10,210 bases of DNA from a virus: UHGV virus genome UHGV-0225709; one strand, 5' to 3'. Made by a program: the position numbers and the translations under genes. Of the stretch, positions 3,896-10,210 are shown piece by piece. A model generated the notes under the pieces. It made no database searches, was not told where the DNA came from, and worked only from the letters and a program-made list of their open reading frames with translations. How positions within the stretch are numbered: position 1 is the stretch's first letter; the number at the start of each line of letters is the position of its first letter.

Positions 3896-3931
3896 GGACC
3901 CAGCAAATATACACAACCTATAAAACACTAA

Positions 3932-3956
3932 AGCGCCTCAGGGGCGCTTTTTGTTT
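3932..3956 (+). terminator. Rho-independent terminator closing the rightward early/cargo operon
   Basis: Stem agcgcc (3932-3937), loop tcagg, stem ggcgct (3943-3948), followed by tttttgttt. Confidence 0.75.
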
Positions 3957-4406: not shown

Positions 4407-5453
4407 TCAGGATGTGGGCTGGGTGTCTAACAGTGCGTAAGGGTTAAAGCGGATCACCTTTTCGCCAAGCCAGTCATTGATGTGCTTCATGGCCTCCATG
4501 ACGGGCATCAGTTCGTTAATTGCGTAAACCCGCGCGGCCTTCTCCACATCACCAAACGCACTTTTTTCGCCCGGCATCGCCCCCATCAGTTGCGGCGGAA
4601 CGCGGTGCGCAGCCAGCACATCATCACGGGATGCCGCCTTAACATTCATGAACTCATCCTTTGCGGTGATCTGCTGGAACGGCAAAATTTGCACCCCCTC
4701 TTTGCCCCCGTTGGGCGCATGAATGAGCACGTTTTTAAACGCACCGCCACCACGCGCACCCTGTAACGTTTCTTTCAGGGAGTCCATGCTTTCGCGGTTT
4801 ACCTGCGCTGCACCGATGTAGATGATGCACCCGGCATGGGATCCGTTGTCGTAATACAGTTTTCTGAACATGTCCGCCGAATGAGACAGGCTGGCCGAGA
4901 GTAATGCGCCAAGATATTCCGGCATGCCGTAGATTTCCTGGTTAATGTCAGGATTCATCAGGTGGCACACTTTGCCTGGGCGAAACTGAAACGCATCCTT
5001 ACCATCCTGCACATACCACCATGATTCAAGATCGCTTCCGCGTCGCATGTATTTCGCTAGGGCGTGCCGTAATTTAAGCGGTTCGCCGAGCATATTGCTT
5101 CGAAGCTCAAGGAATGCGTTACCGAACACAAACCAGTCCAGCGCCAGCGCCGAGAAATCCTGCCGGGAAAGCAGCGGGTGCGGGATGTAGCAACCGAGTA
5201 ATACATTGCGCTTAAAGTAAAGCGCAGACTGATGCCAGGACGTTTGCCGGGCAGCTCTTGCCAGACCGTACCAGTCCACCGGTGTTTCATACCACCGCCC
5301 GTTATCAGCACAGTACATATTGTCCAGCAAATCATGCCCGGTCAGGCGATAAGGACCATCAAATGTGAATGCACTGAGCGATGATTCTTTCCTGAGCGCA
5401 TCAGCGAGATCAATGCGTGAACTCATGCGCACTTTTTTATTTTTTCTGCTCAT
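4407..5453 (-). CDS. Q: Portal protein, P2 gpQ-like
   Basis: 348-aa ORF on the minus strand with SD GGAG 5 nt upstream of its ATG (complement of 5451-5453). Size and position (adjacent to and co-oriented with large terminase, next to the cos region) match P2 Q. The start overlaps the terminase stop (ATGA). Confidence 0.8.
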   Translation of the reverse strand: MSRKNKKVRMSSRIDLADALRKESSLSAFTFDGPYRLTGHDLLDNMYCADNGRWYETPVDWYGLARAARQTSWHQSALYFKRNVLLGCYIPHPLLSRQDFSALALDWFVFGNAFLELRSNMLGEPLKLRHALAKYMRRGSDLESWWYVQDGKDAFQFRPGKVCHLMNPDINQEIYGMPEYLGALLSASLSHSADMFRKLYYDNGSHAGCIIYIGAAQVNRESMDSLKETLQGARGGGAFKNVLIHAPNGGKEGVQILPFQQITAKDEFMNVKAASRDDVLAAHRVPPQLMGAMPGEKSAFGDVEKAARVYAINELMPVMEAMKHINDWLGEKVIRFNPYALLDTQPTS

Positions 5454-8218: not shown

Positions 8219-9271
8219 ATGAATCTGGTGATGTCAGATATTACCCGCAACAAGCTGGGTTGCTATATGGCGCAGCAGGCGTCGCTTAACAATATCCCGG
8301 TATCTGCACTGGTATCGCGATTTACCGTGGAACCCGCGGTGCAGCAGCGTTTTGAAAACGCCTCAAAGGAAAGTACCGAATTTACGAAAAGAATTAACGT
8401 GATCGGCGTGACCGACCAGAAAGGCGAAAAAATCCTCCTGGACACCACCGGGCCAATTGCGCGCACGAATAGCAGTTATGACGGCATCAAACGCCGTAAC
8501 CCGAATAACGTGATCGATATGAACTCTCGTCAGTACCAGTGCGAACAGGTGAACTACGATACCTTTATTTCGTACCCACAGCTTGATACCTGGGCGGCCC
8601 ACAGCGATTTTCAGTCCCGTATCAGTACACAGATCGCCCGGCAGGTAGCGCTTGATCGCATCATGATTGGCTTTAACGGCACATCCCACGCCTACGAGTC
8701 TGATTTTCACACCAACAAGCTGCTTCAGGACGTTAACGTGGGCTGGCTGGAGCACATCAGAACCGATGCCAGCGAGCGCGTAATGAATGACGTGACGCTG
8801 ACCTCCCGCAACATGGACAACACTGTGGCGCACGCGGGTAAGTATGCGAATGCCGATGCTCTGGTACAGGATGCGCGCTCATCCCTGCTGGATGAATGGC
8901 ACAAGGAAGCTGACGACCTTGTGGTGATTATGGGGCGCAACCTGTTTAACTCGCTGCGTCTGCCCGTACTGAACAGCATCAGCGGCCAGAATCCCAATGC
9001 GGAATTACTTGCCGGGCAGCTCATCCTGTCATCGCGCACCATTGGCGGGCTGGGCGTGTTCCTTGCGCCGTTCTTCCCGGATGCAACGATGCTGATCACC
9101 TCGTTCAACAACCTGTCGATTTACTGGCAGAAAGGTTCAATGCGTCGCCTGATGAAAGACGAGCCGGAATACAACCGCATCGCCACCTACCAGTCCATCA
9201 ATGACGCTTATGTCGTTGAAGACTATGGCAAGTGCGCGATGGTCACTGGCTTGAAGTTCGCCGACAGCTAA
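8219..9271 (+). CDS. N: Major capsid protein, P2 gpN-like
   Basis: 350-aa ORF with SD aaaggagc at 8203-8210. The segments ...FTVEPAVQQ..., ...IMIGFNGTSHA..., ...VGWLEHIR..., ...DLVVIMGRNL..., ...MLITSFNNLSIYWQ... and ...YVVEDYGKCAMV... match the P2 N family pattern as I recall it. Confidence 0.85.
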   Translation: MNLVMSDITRNKLGCYMAQQASLNNIPVSALVSRFTVEPAVQQRFENASKESTEFTKRINVIGVTDQKGEKILLDTTGPIARTNSSYDGIKRRNPNNVIDMNSRQYQCEQVNYDTFISYPQLDTWAAHSDFQSRISTQIARQVALDRIMIGFNGTSHAYESDFHTNKLLQDVNVGWLEHIRTDASERVMNDVTLTSRNMDNTVAHAGKYANADALVQDARSSLLDEWHKEADDLVVIMGRNLFNSLRLPVLNSISGQNPNAELLAGQLILSSRTIGGLGVFLAPFFPDATMLITSFNNLSIYWQKGSMRRLMKDEPEYNRIATYQSINDAYVVEDYGKCAMVTGLKFADS

Positions 9272-9316
9272 TCAACTCACGGCGGGCATCATGCCCGCCT
9301 GTAACGGAGAGAAAAA

Positions 9317-10117
9317 ATGATTACTCCTGCACAACAACACTGGCAGAACGTGATGGCACAGCGCGCAGGCCGGGCGAATGAAGGTGTGGACCACGCCGCG
9401 CGTACCGCGCATGAAGAGGTGCTGTATCGTCTGCGTCTGGCACAGGCCAGGCTAAAGGGCGTACAGGCCAGAAGCGCGAAAGCCGCCATCAAAAAAGAGT
9501 TGTTGCCGGATTTTTCCGGCTGGATTGAGGGAACGCTGGAAGCTGACGGCGGGCAGCAGGATGAAGTGATTGCCACGCTGATGGTGTGGGCGATTGACTG
9601 TGGCGATCTTCCGCTTGCGCTGCGTATCGGCGCGTATGTGGTCCATCACAACCTCATCATGCCGGATAACTTTGGCCGTACTGCTGCCACGGTACTGACC
9701 GAAGAAATCTGTAATCCGGTACTGACGCAGGCCGGGACGGATGCCGACGCGGATTTGTCCGCCTTTATCGAACCACTGGACACCCTCCGGGAGATTGTCA
9801 CCGACCAGGACATGCCGGACGAAGTGCGCGCCAAATTATGCAAAGCGTGCGCCTTTGCCCGCCGTGGCCTGACCGATGCGGACAGCATGGCCTCATCACT
9901 GAAGCTGCTGCGCGAAGCAATGCACCTGAACCCGAACGCAGGTGTGAAACGCGAGATTGCAACCCTTTCCCGCGCCCTGAAAAAAGCCGATTCCGCAGCC
10001 GCACCAGAAGATGCCAGCACACCGCAGGCGCAGGACGAAAGCAGCAAAAGTAAAAAGACAACGCGGAAGCCTGCAACACGAAAAACCACCGCGACGCAGA
10101 AGGCGAAGCGCGGTTAA
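9317..10117 (+). CDS. M: Terminase small (endonuclease) subunit, P2 gpM-like
   Basis: 266-aa ORF with SD ggagag at 9305-9310. N-terminus MITPAQQHWQNVMAQRA..., ...KKELLPDFSGWIEG... and a basic K/R-rich C-terminal tail are characteristic of P2 M-type small terminases. Gene order O-N-M. Confidence 0.8.
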   Translation: MITPAQQHWQNVMAQRAGRANEGVDHAARTAHEEVLYRLRLAQARLKGVQARSAKAAIKKELLPDFSGWIEGTLEADGGQQDEVIATLMVWAIDCGDLPLALRIGAYVVHHNLIMPDNFGRTAATVLTEEICNPVLTQAGTDADADLSAFIEPLDTLREIVTDQDMPDEVRAKLCKACAFARRGLTDADSMASSLKLLREAMHLNPNAGVKREIATLSRALKKADSAAAPEDASTPQAQDESSKSKKTTRKPATRKTTATQKAKRG

Positions 10118-10132
10118 CGACTGACCCCGTCA

Positions 10133-10204
10133 GCGGGCGGCGTGCGCGGTGTTCCGGTTTGACTCCGTGACCGTTTACACCGCGCACCCACCGCCCGATT
10201 TTTT
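10133..10204 (+). other. Long imperfect inverted repeat followed by a T6 tract between the M-like gene and the next SD (terminator- or attenuator-like)
   Basis: Left arm gcgggcgg-cgtgcgcggtg (10133-10151) pairs with caccgcgcac (10178-10187) and ccgcccg (10191-10197) across a 3 nt bulge. Loop is about 26 nt. tttttt at 10199-10204, then caggag SD at the window edge. Confidence 0.4.
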
Positions 10205-10210
10205 CAGGAG

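What the first reader, a model, noticed from the sequence alone, without database searches (positions are those of the whole stretch)
10133..10204. Large imperfect hairpin plus U-tract inside the late operon, between the small terminase gene and the next gene
An 18 bp interrupted stem with a 26 nt loop, followed by TTTTTT and then immediately an SD (caggag). This could partially terminate or attenuate transcription after the M-like gene, or act as an RNA stability element. The GC-rich dyad CGGGCGG...CCGCCCG is also a potential protein-binding site.
Basis: seen in the sequence. Interest (0 to 1): 0.4.

Follow-up and report, generated by a model that had tools for sequence, protein, structure and literature searches.

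The report
Conserved RNA hairpin between P2-family genes
The hairpin is real; it is this prophage's copy of a folded RNA element found at the same gene junction in nearly all P2-like phages I sampled, and here, with its run of U's, it probably acts as a leaky transcription stop ahead of the head-completion, lysis and tail genes.

Summary
Window 10134-10197 folds into a 7 + 11 bp interrupted hairpin (-42 kcal/mol) followed by A+U6 and the Shine-Dalgarno sequence of the next gene. No shuffle of 200 folds as well.

The window is a P88-like (Xuanwuvirus, P2 family) E. coli prophage. The hairpin fills the gap between M (small terminase) and L (head completion).

The hairpin is one copy of a family-wide, single-copy element. 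A covariance model finds exactly one sense-strand hit at the M-L junction in 82 of 87 diverse P2-like loci. Stem sequences differ but stay paired (95% versus 68% in shuffles; 11 of 13 pairs show double changes). An internal loop, C opposite CCA/UCA, and its two flanking G-C pairs are invariant in 76 distinct copies. No Rfam family matches, and the curated P2 record leaves the gap unannotated.

The U-tract is not conserved. The window ranks in the top 4 of 82; phages P2 and 186 have weak or no U-tails.

Best reading: in this lineage it is a leaky intrinsic terminator and 3'-end stabiliser. The conserved core has another, unidentified role, such as RNA processing, stability or protein binding. 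All functional statements are inferred; nothing here measures transcription.

The parts
9317..10117 (+). Gene M (small terminase subunit), upstream context. Its stop codon TAA is at 10115-10117.
   Evidence: ORF list. 97-100% identical to proteins annotated as terminase small subunit in P88-like phages and as gpM in E. coli prophages.
10111..10208 (+). Full extent of the family-wide M-L intercistronic element, as matched by covariance model R1.
   Evidence: cmsearch 49.7 bits, E 1.5e-7. It is the only hit in the window and the only hit in the whole P88 genome.
10116..10120 (+). Conserved single-stranded 5' motif. It reads AACGA here; the family consensus is (U)AACCGAR, overlapping or following the M stop codon.
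   Evidence: Nearly invariant G and A columns in alignments A3 and A4 and in the A5 listing.
10121..10133 (+). Small hairpin hp1, CUGAC-CCC-GUCAG (5 bp, C-rich loop).
   Evidence: RNAfold. A 3-6 bp hairpin with a C-rich loop sits at the same position in most of 64 distinct relatives, with different stem sequences. Its energy is only slightly better than shuffles, -3.85 versus -2.83 kcal/mol.
10134..10140 (+). hp2 outer stem, 5' strand, CGGGCGG.
   Evidence: Pairs with 10191-10197. The outer-stem pairs covary in relatives: GGCGG/CCGCC, GGGGG/CCCCC, GACGG/CCGUC, GGAGG/CCUCC, GCCGG/CCGGC. The two G-C pairs next to the internal loop are invariant in 76 of 76 copies.
10141..10141 (+). Unpaired C on the 5' side of the internal loop.
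   Evidence: C in 76 of 76 distinct family members.
10142..10152 (+). hp2 inner stem, 5' strand, GUGCGCGGUGU.
   Evidence: Pairs with 10177-10187. All seven inner pairs analysed show changes on both sides in relatives.
10153..10176 (+). Apical region, 24 nt, with a predicted 5-bp mini-stem. It varies in length and sequence across the family.
   Evidence: Whole-hairpin length across the family is 48-71 nt, median 59.
10177..10187 (+). hp2 inner stem, 3' strand, ACACCGCGCAC.
   Evidence: Rare single mismatches or G:U changes occur in this strand in close relatives.
10188..10190 (+). Unpaired CCA on the 3' side of the internal loop.
   Evidence: CCA in 68 and UCA in 8 of 76 distinct family members. 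Invariant in 79 P88-like contigs.
10191..10197 (+). hp2 outer stem, 3' strand, CCGCCCG.
10198..10204 (+). A + U6 tail. This is the lineage-specific U-tract that makes the hairpin look like an intrinsic terminator.
   Evidence: Sequence. Tail score 4.22, top 4 of 82. The T-run is 6, 7 or 8 long in 79 close relatives. Elsewhere in the family the tail is a weaker motif, RAYYUAUUC.
10205..10210 (+). Shine-Dalgarno sequence CAGGAG of gene L (head completion). The L start codon lies at about 10219, outside the window.
   Evidence: Identical sequence continues ...CAGGAGTGAACCCCATG in P88 and the O157 prophage, where the CDS is annotated head-tail adaptor / head completion protein.

Best explanation
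The hairpin is the P88-lineage copy of a single-copy structured RNA element. This element occupies the untranslated gap between the small-terminase gene M and the head-completion gene L in the late O-operon mRNA of P2-like phages.

Its parts, 5' to 3':
- a short conserved single-stranded motif at the M stop codon;
- a small C-rich hairpin;
- a long hairpin with a 6-7 bp outer stem, an invariant 1 x 3 internal loop (C opposite CCA/UCA) flanked by two invariant G-C pairs, and a variable inner stem;
- a short A/U-containing tail;
- the L ribosome-binding site.

In this phage the tail has become A+U6-8. RNA polymerase that has just transcribed the outer stem therefore meets a canonical-looking terminator signal. 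My reading is that a fraction of transcripts end at about 10203-10206. This yields abundant O-N-M (capsid and packaging) mRNA protected by a 3' hairpin. The remainder read through to L, X, the holin and endolysin genes, R and S, which are therefore made at a lower rate.

Shown here: the structure, its conservation, its covariation, its uniqueness in the genome and the lineage-specific U-tract.

Inferred: that it acts in RNA, that it terminates partially, and that it stabilises the upstream mRNA.

The conserved core must also do something that does not need a U-tract, because most family members lack one. That function is not identified. The candidates are an endonuclease processing or decay barrier that sets segmental mRNA stability, or a binding site for a conserved protein.
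For: Structure and statistics in the window.

Context in a P2-like late operon.

Conserved gap: the M-L gap is 92-112 nt in most of 86 diverse loci, while other late-gene junctions are tight.

Shared architecture: the same architecture is seen in P2, 186, SEN4, PHL101 and about 80 prophages of Gamma- and Betaproteobacteria.

Covariation on a MAFFT alignment:
- 95.1% of cells paired, versus 68% in shuffles and 40-57% when partners are slid.
- Covariation score 0.626 versus 0.125.
- 11 of 13 pairs show double changes.

Invariant internal loop, and G:U 23 versus A.C 9 on the sense strand.

Uniqueness and specificity:
- One hit per locus, and one per whole genome, all on the sense strand.
- 116 of 120 IMG/VR matches to a specific 20-base pattern lie between M and/or L homologues.

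U-tail: top 4 of 82, and kept at 6-8 T in 79 close relatives.

Read-through is required. The curated P2 record places L through S in the O operon, with no promoter annotated after M. Only 21 nt lie between the hairpin and the L start.
Against: - No transcript data were found for any family member.
- The hairpin is atypical for an efficient intrinsic terminator. It is 64 nt long, with an internal loop and a 24-nt apical region, and a standard pattern scan does not call it.
- The curators of the P2 record annotated other terminators and an attenuator, but nothing in this gap.
- Most relatives keep the hairpin without a usable U-tract. The conserved selective reason is therefore not canonical termination.
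- The U-run could instead be an A/U-rich translational enhancer for L.
- A stoichiometry argument would place an attenuator after N rather than after M.
- HP1 does without the element altogether; its M and L genes overlap.
- The invariant C/CCA loop is not explained by a terminator or stabiliser model.
Confidence: 0.5

Rival explanations
1. Processing site or decay barrier only. The hairpin does not stop RNA polymerase. It is a target or barrier for host RNases. Possible routes are RNase III cutting at the internal loop of an about 18-20 bp helix, or RNase E cutting in the A/U tail just 3' of the hairpin. Either way the polycistronic late mRNA is split into an O-N-M segment with a protective 3' hairpin and an L-to-S segment with a different half-life.
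For: - The hairpin is conserved with or without a U-tract.
- The tail has a semi-conserved single-stranded A/U motif, RAYYUAUUC, directly 3' of the stem. K139 keeps that tail behind a different hairpin.
- Total helix length is 13-20 bp with one internal loop. From general knowledge, this resembles phage T7 RNase III sites.
- The sense-strand bias of G:U pairs fits an RNA-level role.
Against: - No cleavage data exist.
- From general knowledge, RNase III and RNase E have loose sequence requirements, so an invariant C/CCA loop with two invariant G-C pairs across Gamma- and Betaproteobacteria is more specific than expected.
- This model does not explain why the P88 lineage keeps a run of at least 6 U.
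Confidence: 0.25
2. Operator for a specific RNA-binding factor. A conserved phage protein, or a conserved host component such as RNA polymerase or the ribosome, recognises the bulged helix (C/CCA loop plus flanking G-C pairs). It would then control translation of L, or read-through into the lysis and tail genes, for example coupling lysis timing to head assembly.
For: - Absolute invariance of the internal loop and the two neighbouring pairs, while all other stem positions vary. From general knowledge, this is the conservation pattern of protein-binding bulged hairpins such as HIV TAR or the MS2 operator.
- Fixed spacing to the M stop (median 20 nt) and to the L start (median 20 nt).
- No alternative cis-pairing partner for the CCACCGCC strand within about 700-900 nt.
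Against: - No candidate protein was identified.
- The basic C-terminal tail of M, an obvious candidate, is confined to enterobacterial lineages.
- The Shine-Dalgarno sequence is not sequestered by the hairpin.
- HP1-type phages lack the element.
Confidence: 0.15
3. DNA-level element. The inverted repeat works as DNA: either as a hairpin on displaced single-stranded DNA during rolling-circle replication (a priming signal), or as a cruciform or dyad site for a DNA-binding protein or for recombination between phage modules.
For: - P2-type phages replicate by a rolling-circle mode and need a dedicated lagging-strand function; gene B is annotated this way in the P2 record.
- The element is single-copy per genome.
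- Base-pair covariation alone cannot tell an RNA hairpin from a single-stranded DNA hairpin.
Against: - The element exactly fills the untranslated space from the M stop to the L ribosome-binding site, with tight spacing on both sides.
- G:U outnumbers A.C 23 to 9 on the mRNA-sense strand, which argues against a double-stranded DNA dyad or a cruciform.
- The asymmetric loop and the C-rich unpaired segments are strand-specific.
- Stem sequences are not conserved, as a sequence-specific double-stranded DNA site would require.
Confidence: 0.05
4. The U-run is not a terminator U-tract. It is an A/U-rich translational enhancer or standby site for L, and the hairpin merely insulates the L ribosome-binding site from GC-rich flanking RNA.
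For: - The run lies 1-7 nt upstream of the Shine-Dalgarno sequence.
- The family tail is A/U-enriched even in GC-rich hosts, where it is not a U-tract.
- From general knowledge, U-rich leaders enhance translation through ribosomal protein S1.
Against: - This does not explain the invariant internal loop.
- A 64-nt, -42 kcal/mol hairpin is far more than insulation needs.
- This reading does not exclude termination, because the two roles can coexist.
Confidence: 0.05

Closest known systems
Rho-independent (intrinsic) terminators used as internal operon attenuators. One example is the 'putative transcription attenuator; O operon' annotated inside lysC of phage P2 (NC_001895).
   Same: GC-rich hairpin immediately followed by a U-run, inside a polycistronic late operon, with essential genes downstream. 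In the window copy the tail is A+U6.
   Different: - The hairpin is about 60 nt long with an invariant internal loop and a variable apical domain, rather than a compact 5-14 bp stem with a 3-8 nt loop.
- The U-tract is missing in most family members.
- The conservation is focused on the internal loop, not on the stem base and U-tract.
Intercistronic mRNA-stabilising stem-loops, such as REP sequences in the malE-malF spacer (from general knowledge).
   Same: A stable stem-loop in an untranslated gap between a highly needed upstream gene set and less needed downstream genes. It would be expected to block 3'-to-5' exonucleases.
   Different: - It is single-copy per genome and syntenic across a virus family, whereas REPs are dispersed repeats.
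- It has sequence-invariant loop nucleotides.
RNase III processing sites of phage T7 early and late mRNAs, and lambda sib (from general knowledge).
   Same: A phage polycistronic mRNA, an about 20-bp irregular helix with an internal loop between cistrons, and an upstream product that would keep a 3' hairpin.
   Different: No cleavage has been shown here. The helix is often shorter, with 13-20 bp total. A strictly invariant C/CCA loop is not a known RNase III determinant.
Protein-binding bulged RNA hairpins, such as HIV-1 TAR (a 3-nt pyrimidine bulge flanked by G-C pairs) and the MS2 or T4 translational operators (from general knowledge).
   Same: An invariant pyrimidine-rich bulge flanked by invariant G-C pairs, in a helix whose other pairs vary freely.
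   Different: No partner is known. The ribosome-binding site is not inside the hairpin.
HK022 put RNA, a cis-acting antiterminator made of two stem-loops (from general knowledge).
   Same: Two adjacent hairpins in a phage transcript that could act on the transcribing polymerase.
   Different: put sites lie just downstream of promoters and upstream of terminators. This element lies about 3 kb into the operon, and in this lineage it looks like a terminator itself. No sequence or model match to any Rfam family was found.

Membership tests
Intrinsic (Rho-independent) terminator | Stable GC-rich RNA hairpin | tested here: met
   -42.2 kcal/mol for 10134-10197; z = -5.3 for the region.
Intrinsic (Rho-independent) terminator | U-tract of about 5-8 nt starting within 0-2 nt of the stem | tested here: met
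   A + U6 at 10198-10204; tail score 4.22. This is not met in most relatives: 186 scores 0.46, P2 1.88, and many score below 1.5.
Intrinsic (Rho-independent) terminator | Compact hairpin (short stem, loop of 3-8 nt) | tested here: not met
   64-nt hairpin with a 1 x 3 internal loop and a 24-nt apical region. It is not reported by the pattern scan.
Intrinsic (Rho-independent) terminator | RNA 3' ends produced at the U-tract by RNA polymerase alone | not testable with these tools
   No transcript-end data were found in the paper library.
Internal operon attenuator (partial terminator) | Essential co-transcribed genes downstream with no intervening promoter, so that read-through is obligatory | tested here: inconclusive
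   By homology, the P2 record assigns L, X, Y, K, lysA, lysB, R and S to the O-promoter transcript. There are 21 nt between the hairpin and the L start, and no promoter-like site on the + strand there. Nothing is shown experimentally for this phage.
REP-like or intercistronic stabiliser hairpin | Stable stem-loop in an intercistronic gap | tested here: met
REP-like or intercistronic stabiliser hairpin | Member of a dispersed repeat family in the genome | tested here: not met
   One hit per locus, and one per complete P2 and P88 genome.
REP-like or intercistronic stabiliser hairpin | Upstream mRNA segment is more stable or more abundant than the downstream segment | not testable with these tools
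   Needs RNA-seq or half-life measurements.
RNase III processing site | About two helical turns of double-stranded RNA, often with an internal loop that directs a single cut | tested here: inconclusive
   18 bp here, and 13-20 bp across the family, with one internal loop. Cleavage cannot be tested with these tools.
Any described RNA family (Rfam 15) | Match to a curated covariance model | tested here: not met
   Only far-sub-threshold hits to unrelated miRNA, snoRNA and riboswitch models in window 9000-10210 (best: a miRNA model, E = 0.033, 22 bits against a gathering score of 100). No hit at E <= 1 in six relatives' loci.
Conserved structured cis-RNA, defined here as the P2-family M-L intercistronic element | Same position, same architecture, and base pairs kept through compensatory changes | tested here: met
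   82 of 87 loci have one sense-strand hit at the M-L junction. 95.1% of cells are paired versus 68% shuffled, and 11 of 13 pairs show double changes. The C/CCA loop is invariant. The window scores 49.7 bits.

The most novel reading that the evidence does not exclude
The M-L element is a previously undescribed class of cis-acting regulatory RNA of the P2 family (Peduoviridae). Its invariant C/CCA bulged helix would be the docking site for a specific conserved factor. That factor could be a phage late protein, RNA polymerase or a host ribonuclease such as RNase P or RNase III. It would gate expression of everything downstream (head completion, holin, endolysin, tail completion) relative to the capsid genes, acting as a built-in switch or timer between head assembly and lysis. 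The terminator-like U-tract of the P88 lineage would then be a secondary elaboration.
Probability: 0.2. Interest if true: 0.75.

Novelty: new variant of a known kind. Interest (0 to 1): 0.5.

Why it matters
P2 and 186 are classic model phages, and P88-like prophages carrying this sequence sit in about one fifth of complete E. coli genomes (1055 of 5426). Even so, the only long non-coding gap in this first part of the late O operon (O to K) is unannotated in the curated P2 record and matches no Rfam family.

The gap holds a deeply conserved, covarying RNA structure with an invariant internal loop. That gives a concrete, mutable handle on an open question: how these phages set the ratio and timing of capsid versus lysis and tail gene expression from a single promoter.

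For annotation, the element is a near-diagnostic marker of the M-L junction: 116 of 120 pattern hits fall there.

For this window specifically, it predicts a measurable 3' end at about 10200-10206 and lower transcription of the genes beyond it.

Tried and rejected
1. A loose pattern scan, GGCGGC-N30-60-CCACCGCC, in IMG/VR returned unspecific GC-rich hits and was discarded. A stricter 20-base pattern worked.

The capsid-protein alignment was used instead.

3. Rfam searches of the window and of six relatives found nothing relevant.

4. Five full-text literature searches and two targeted readings found no description of the element and no transcript-end data for P2-like late operons. The original P2 sequence paper and the Psu paper are not held.

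5. I searched for an alternative cis-pairing partner for the conserved CCACCGCC strand, as an attenuator-type switch would need. No conserved partner lies within about 700-900 nt.

6. I considered the basic C-terminal tail of M as the binding partner. It is rejected as a general explanation, because the tail exists only in enterobacterial lineages.

7. Mimics of a Shine-Dalgarno / anti-Shine-Dalgarno duplex, of an RfaH ops site and of nut/boxB were each considered from the sequence and rejected. The key positions do not match, or are not conserved: the middle outer-stem pair is C-G in 65 of 76 copies.

8. hp1 is only weakly supported by energy (-3.85 versus -2.83 kcal/mol in shuffles). It is reported as probable, on the grounds of position and varied stems.

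9. The four pattern hits without M or L neighbours were checked in part. Two look like chance matches in GC-rich sequence; the script failed before the other two were examined.

Full report
**What is in the sequence**

The window ends with the 3' end of an ORF at 9317-10117 and a 93-nt non-coding stretch. Reading the bases gives these features:
- A small hairpin CTGAC-CCC-GTCAG at 10121-10133.
- A long hairpin at 10134-10197. Its 7-bp outer stem is CGGGCGG/CCGCCCG.
- An asymmetric internal loop, C10141 opposite CCA 10188-10190.
- An 11-bp inner stem and a 24-nt apical region.
- A10198, T6 at 10199-10204, and CAGGAG at 10205-10210.

RNAfold gives -48 kcal/mol for 10118-10210, against -30.4 +/- 3.3 for 200 dinucleotide-preserving shuffles (z = -5.3, none as stable). 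The long hairpin alone gives -42.2 kcal/mol.

The toolkit's consensus terminator scan misses the hairpin only because that scan demands a 3-8 nt loop.

**Context**

The 311 bases around the feature are 97-100% identical to P88-like phages (genus Xuanwuvirus, Peduoviridae). The last 111 bases occur in 1055 of 5426 complete E. coli genomes.

In phage P88 and in an O157 prophage the upstream ORF is the small terminase subunit (gpM). The next CDS, starting 101 nt after the M stop (window ~10219), is the head completion / head-tail adaptor protein, the P2 gpL homologue. It is followed without gaps by X, holin, endolysin and further late genes.

The window itself carries Q and P on the minus strand and O, N and M on the plus strand, which is the P2 arrangement.

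**The gap and its structure are family-wide**

The M-L gaps are 99 nt in P2, 92 nt in 186, 102 nt in SEN4 and 111 nt in Mannheimia phage PHL101. Their other late-gene junctions are tight.

Folding those gaps gives the same architecture each time.

I then fetched 80 prophage loci from one genome per species, using a capsid-protein alignment. They cover Enterobacterales, Halomonas, Pseudomonas, Aeromonas, Pasteurellaceae, Burkholderiales and others.
- The M-stop to L-start distance clusters at 92-112 nt.
- Nearly every locus shows the two-hairpin element.

A covariance model built from 72 of these (R1) gave the following results:
- Exactly one hit, always on the sense strand and always at the M-L junction, in 82 of 87 loci.
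- One hit only in the complete P2 and P88 genomes.
- No hit in HP1 or K139.

In HP1, M and L overlap by 8 nt, so there is no gap. K139 has a 106-nt gap with a different long hairpin but the same kind of tail, ACCUAUUU.

As an independent specificity test, I scanned IMG/VR with a 20-base pattern taken from the conserved core. In 116 of 120 hits the pattern lay between an M homologue and/or an L homologue in the sense orientation. Of the four odd hits, two look like chance matches; the other two were not examined.

**Covariation**

On a plain MAFFT alignment of 71 sequences, RNAalifold predicts 13 pairs, and 11 of them have compensatory double changes. With that structure:

| Measure | Observed | Shuffled partners | Partners slid 1-3 columns |
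|---|---|---|---|
| Cells forming standard pairs | 95.1% | 68.0% (0 of 500 shuffles reach observed) | 40-57% |
| Covariation score | 0.626 | 0.125 | 0.06-0.10 |

(All.)

An anchor-based tally of 76 distinct copies gives the following:
- The closing pair of the inner stem is G-C 29, A-U 26, U-A 17, C-G 4.
- The basal outer pair is A-U 28, C-G 19, G-C 15, U-A 10.
- The bulged 5' C is invariant (76 of 76).
- The 3' bulge is CCA in 68 and UCA in 8.
- The two G-C pairs flanking the loop on the outer side are invariant.
- Among non-Watson-Crick cells, G:U (23) outnumbers A.C (9) on the mRNA-sense strand. This modestly favours a structure formed by the sense strand, most simply the mRNA.

The small 5' hairpin is weak in energy (-3.85 versus -2.83 kcal/mol for shuffles). 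It recurs at the same place with many different stem sequences.

Spacing is tight on both sides:
- M stop to long hairpin: median 20 nt (range 14-42).
- Hairpin to L start codon: median 20 nt (range 9-69).

Where an extra ORF has been inserted before L, the element stays next to the M stop.

**The U-tract is lineage-specific**

I scored the 15 nt after the stem with a standard decaying U-tail score.
- The window scores 4.22, in the top 4 of 82.
- P2 scores 1.88 and 186 scores 0.46.
- Most copies from GC-rich hosts score below 1.5.
- Only 19 of 76 copies have a T-run of 4 or more.

Elsewhere the tail is a weaker, semi-conserved A/U-containing motif, RAYYUAUUC, that runs into the Shine-Dalgarno sequence.

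Within the P88 lineage (79 IMG/VR contigs) the run is 6, 7 or 8 T and never shorter. The outer stem and both bulges do not vary. Only a few single inner-stem changes occur, some giving G:U and some giving mismatches.

**What it most likely does**

Four things are shown:
- It is a selected, strand-specific, single-copy structure.
- It fills the untranslated gap after M.
- In this lineage it is followed by a canonical-length U-run.
- Essential late genes lie downstream with no room for a promoter. There are 21 nt to the L start, no promoter-like site there, and the P2 record assigns L through S to the O-promoter transcript.

From this I infer that here the element works as a leaky intrinsic terminator. 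Some polymerases would stop at the U-run, leaving O-N-M mRNA capped by a very stable 3' hairpin. The rest would continue, so head completion, lysis and tail completion genes are expressed at a lower rate. I put this at about 0.5.

This cannot be the whole story. 186, P2, PHL101 and most other members keep the hairpin without a usable U-tract, and the strongest conservation sits on an internal loop that a terminator does not need.

The family-wide role is therefore more likely one of two things:
- An mRNA processing or decay-barrier function (about 0.25 as the sole function here).
- Recognition of the bulged helix by a specific factor (about 0.15).

A DNA-level role (a single-stranded DNA hairpin or a dyad site) is disfavoured by the G:U bias, the strand asymmetry and the exact fit to the untranslated gap (about 0.05).

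The U-run may also, or instead, serve as an A/U-rich translational enhancer for L.

**Comparison with known elements**

The element works like an internal operon attenuator or intercistronic stabiliser hairpin. Three points keep it apart from known families:
- It fails the compact-hairpin criterion of typical intrinsic terminators, and as a family it fails the U-tract criterion.
- It is not a dispersed repeat like REP.
- It matches no Rfam 15 family.

The curated P2 RefSeq record annotates several terminators and an attenuator inside lysC, but nothing in the M-L gap. The PHL101 record labels part of its gap 'terminator' and 'promoter'; I take these to be computational calls, although the record does not state their basis.

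Five full-text searches found no description and no transcript-end data for these operons. The primary P2 sequence paper is not in the library, so an early mention there cannot be excluded.

**Verdict**

The finding is more interesting than a lone terminator-like hairpin. It is one member of a deeply conserved, apparently undescribed structured RNA element of the P2 family, with an invariant internal loop of unknown purpose. The mechanism remains inferred, and the most ordinary reading (attenuator plus stabiliser) is also the most likely one for this phage.

Interest 0.5; novelty: new variant of a known kind.

Noticed in passing
window 3930-3950: A perfect hairpin AAAGCGCC-loop-GGCGCTTT flanked by T-runs on both strands. 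The scan lists it as terminator-like in both orientations, so it is a likely bidirectional terminator in the accessory region upstream of gene Q.
   Followed up: no
L003-L082 (P88-like IMG/VR contigs), position equivalent to window 10199-10204: The T-run after the hairpin is polymorphic in length: 6 in most, 7 in about 24 and 8 in 3 contigs. It is never shorter than 6. A few contigs also vary in the C-run just before the L start codon.
   Followed up: partly
Relatives such as L086, L087, L209, L236, L240, L249, L260, L268, L269, L271 and L286: distal 5' part of the inner stem: A GATC (Dam site) recurs in the upper part of the hairpin in many lineages. It is absent from the window and from P2. 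It was not tested against chance or shared ancestry.
   Followed up: no
L249 ~4439-4731, L269 ~4470-4773, L275 ~4440-4674: In three prophages (Stutzerimonas, Pseudomonas and a Burkholderiales MAG) an extra 335-396 nt, apparently an inserted ORF, lies between the element and L. The element stays directly after the M stop codon.
   Followed up: partly
L290 (HP1) 16588-16595; L291 (K139) 18285-18390: HP1 has no M-L gap; the genes overlap by 8 nt. K139 has a 106-nt gap with a different long hairpin that lacks the C/CCA loop, but it ends in the family-type tail ACCUAUUU.
   Followed up: partly
window ~10030-10114 (C-terminus of M) and relatives: M ends in a Lys/Arg/Thr-rich basic tail in enterobacterial lineages: 9-12 K/R in the last 30 residues. 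It does not in Pseudomonas, Halomonas or Burkholderiales relatives, whose M ends soon after the conserved GVKKDIERLER motif.
   Followed up: partly
window 9272-9316: The N-M junction is a 45-nt gap in this phage, versus 3 nt in P2. It was not examined.
   Followed up: no
L213, L214, L219 (Symbiopectobacterium prophages): These copies carry A.C mismatches in the inner stem. This may reflect decay of prophages in symbiont genomes.
   Followed up: no
L292 (P2) 8399-8417: The curated P2 record annotates a 'putative transcription attenuator; O operon' inside lysC. Internal attenuation of this operon has therefore been proposed at another site. The equivalent region lies outside the window.
   Followed up: no
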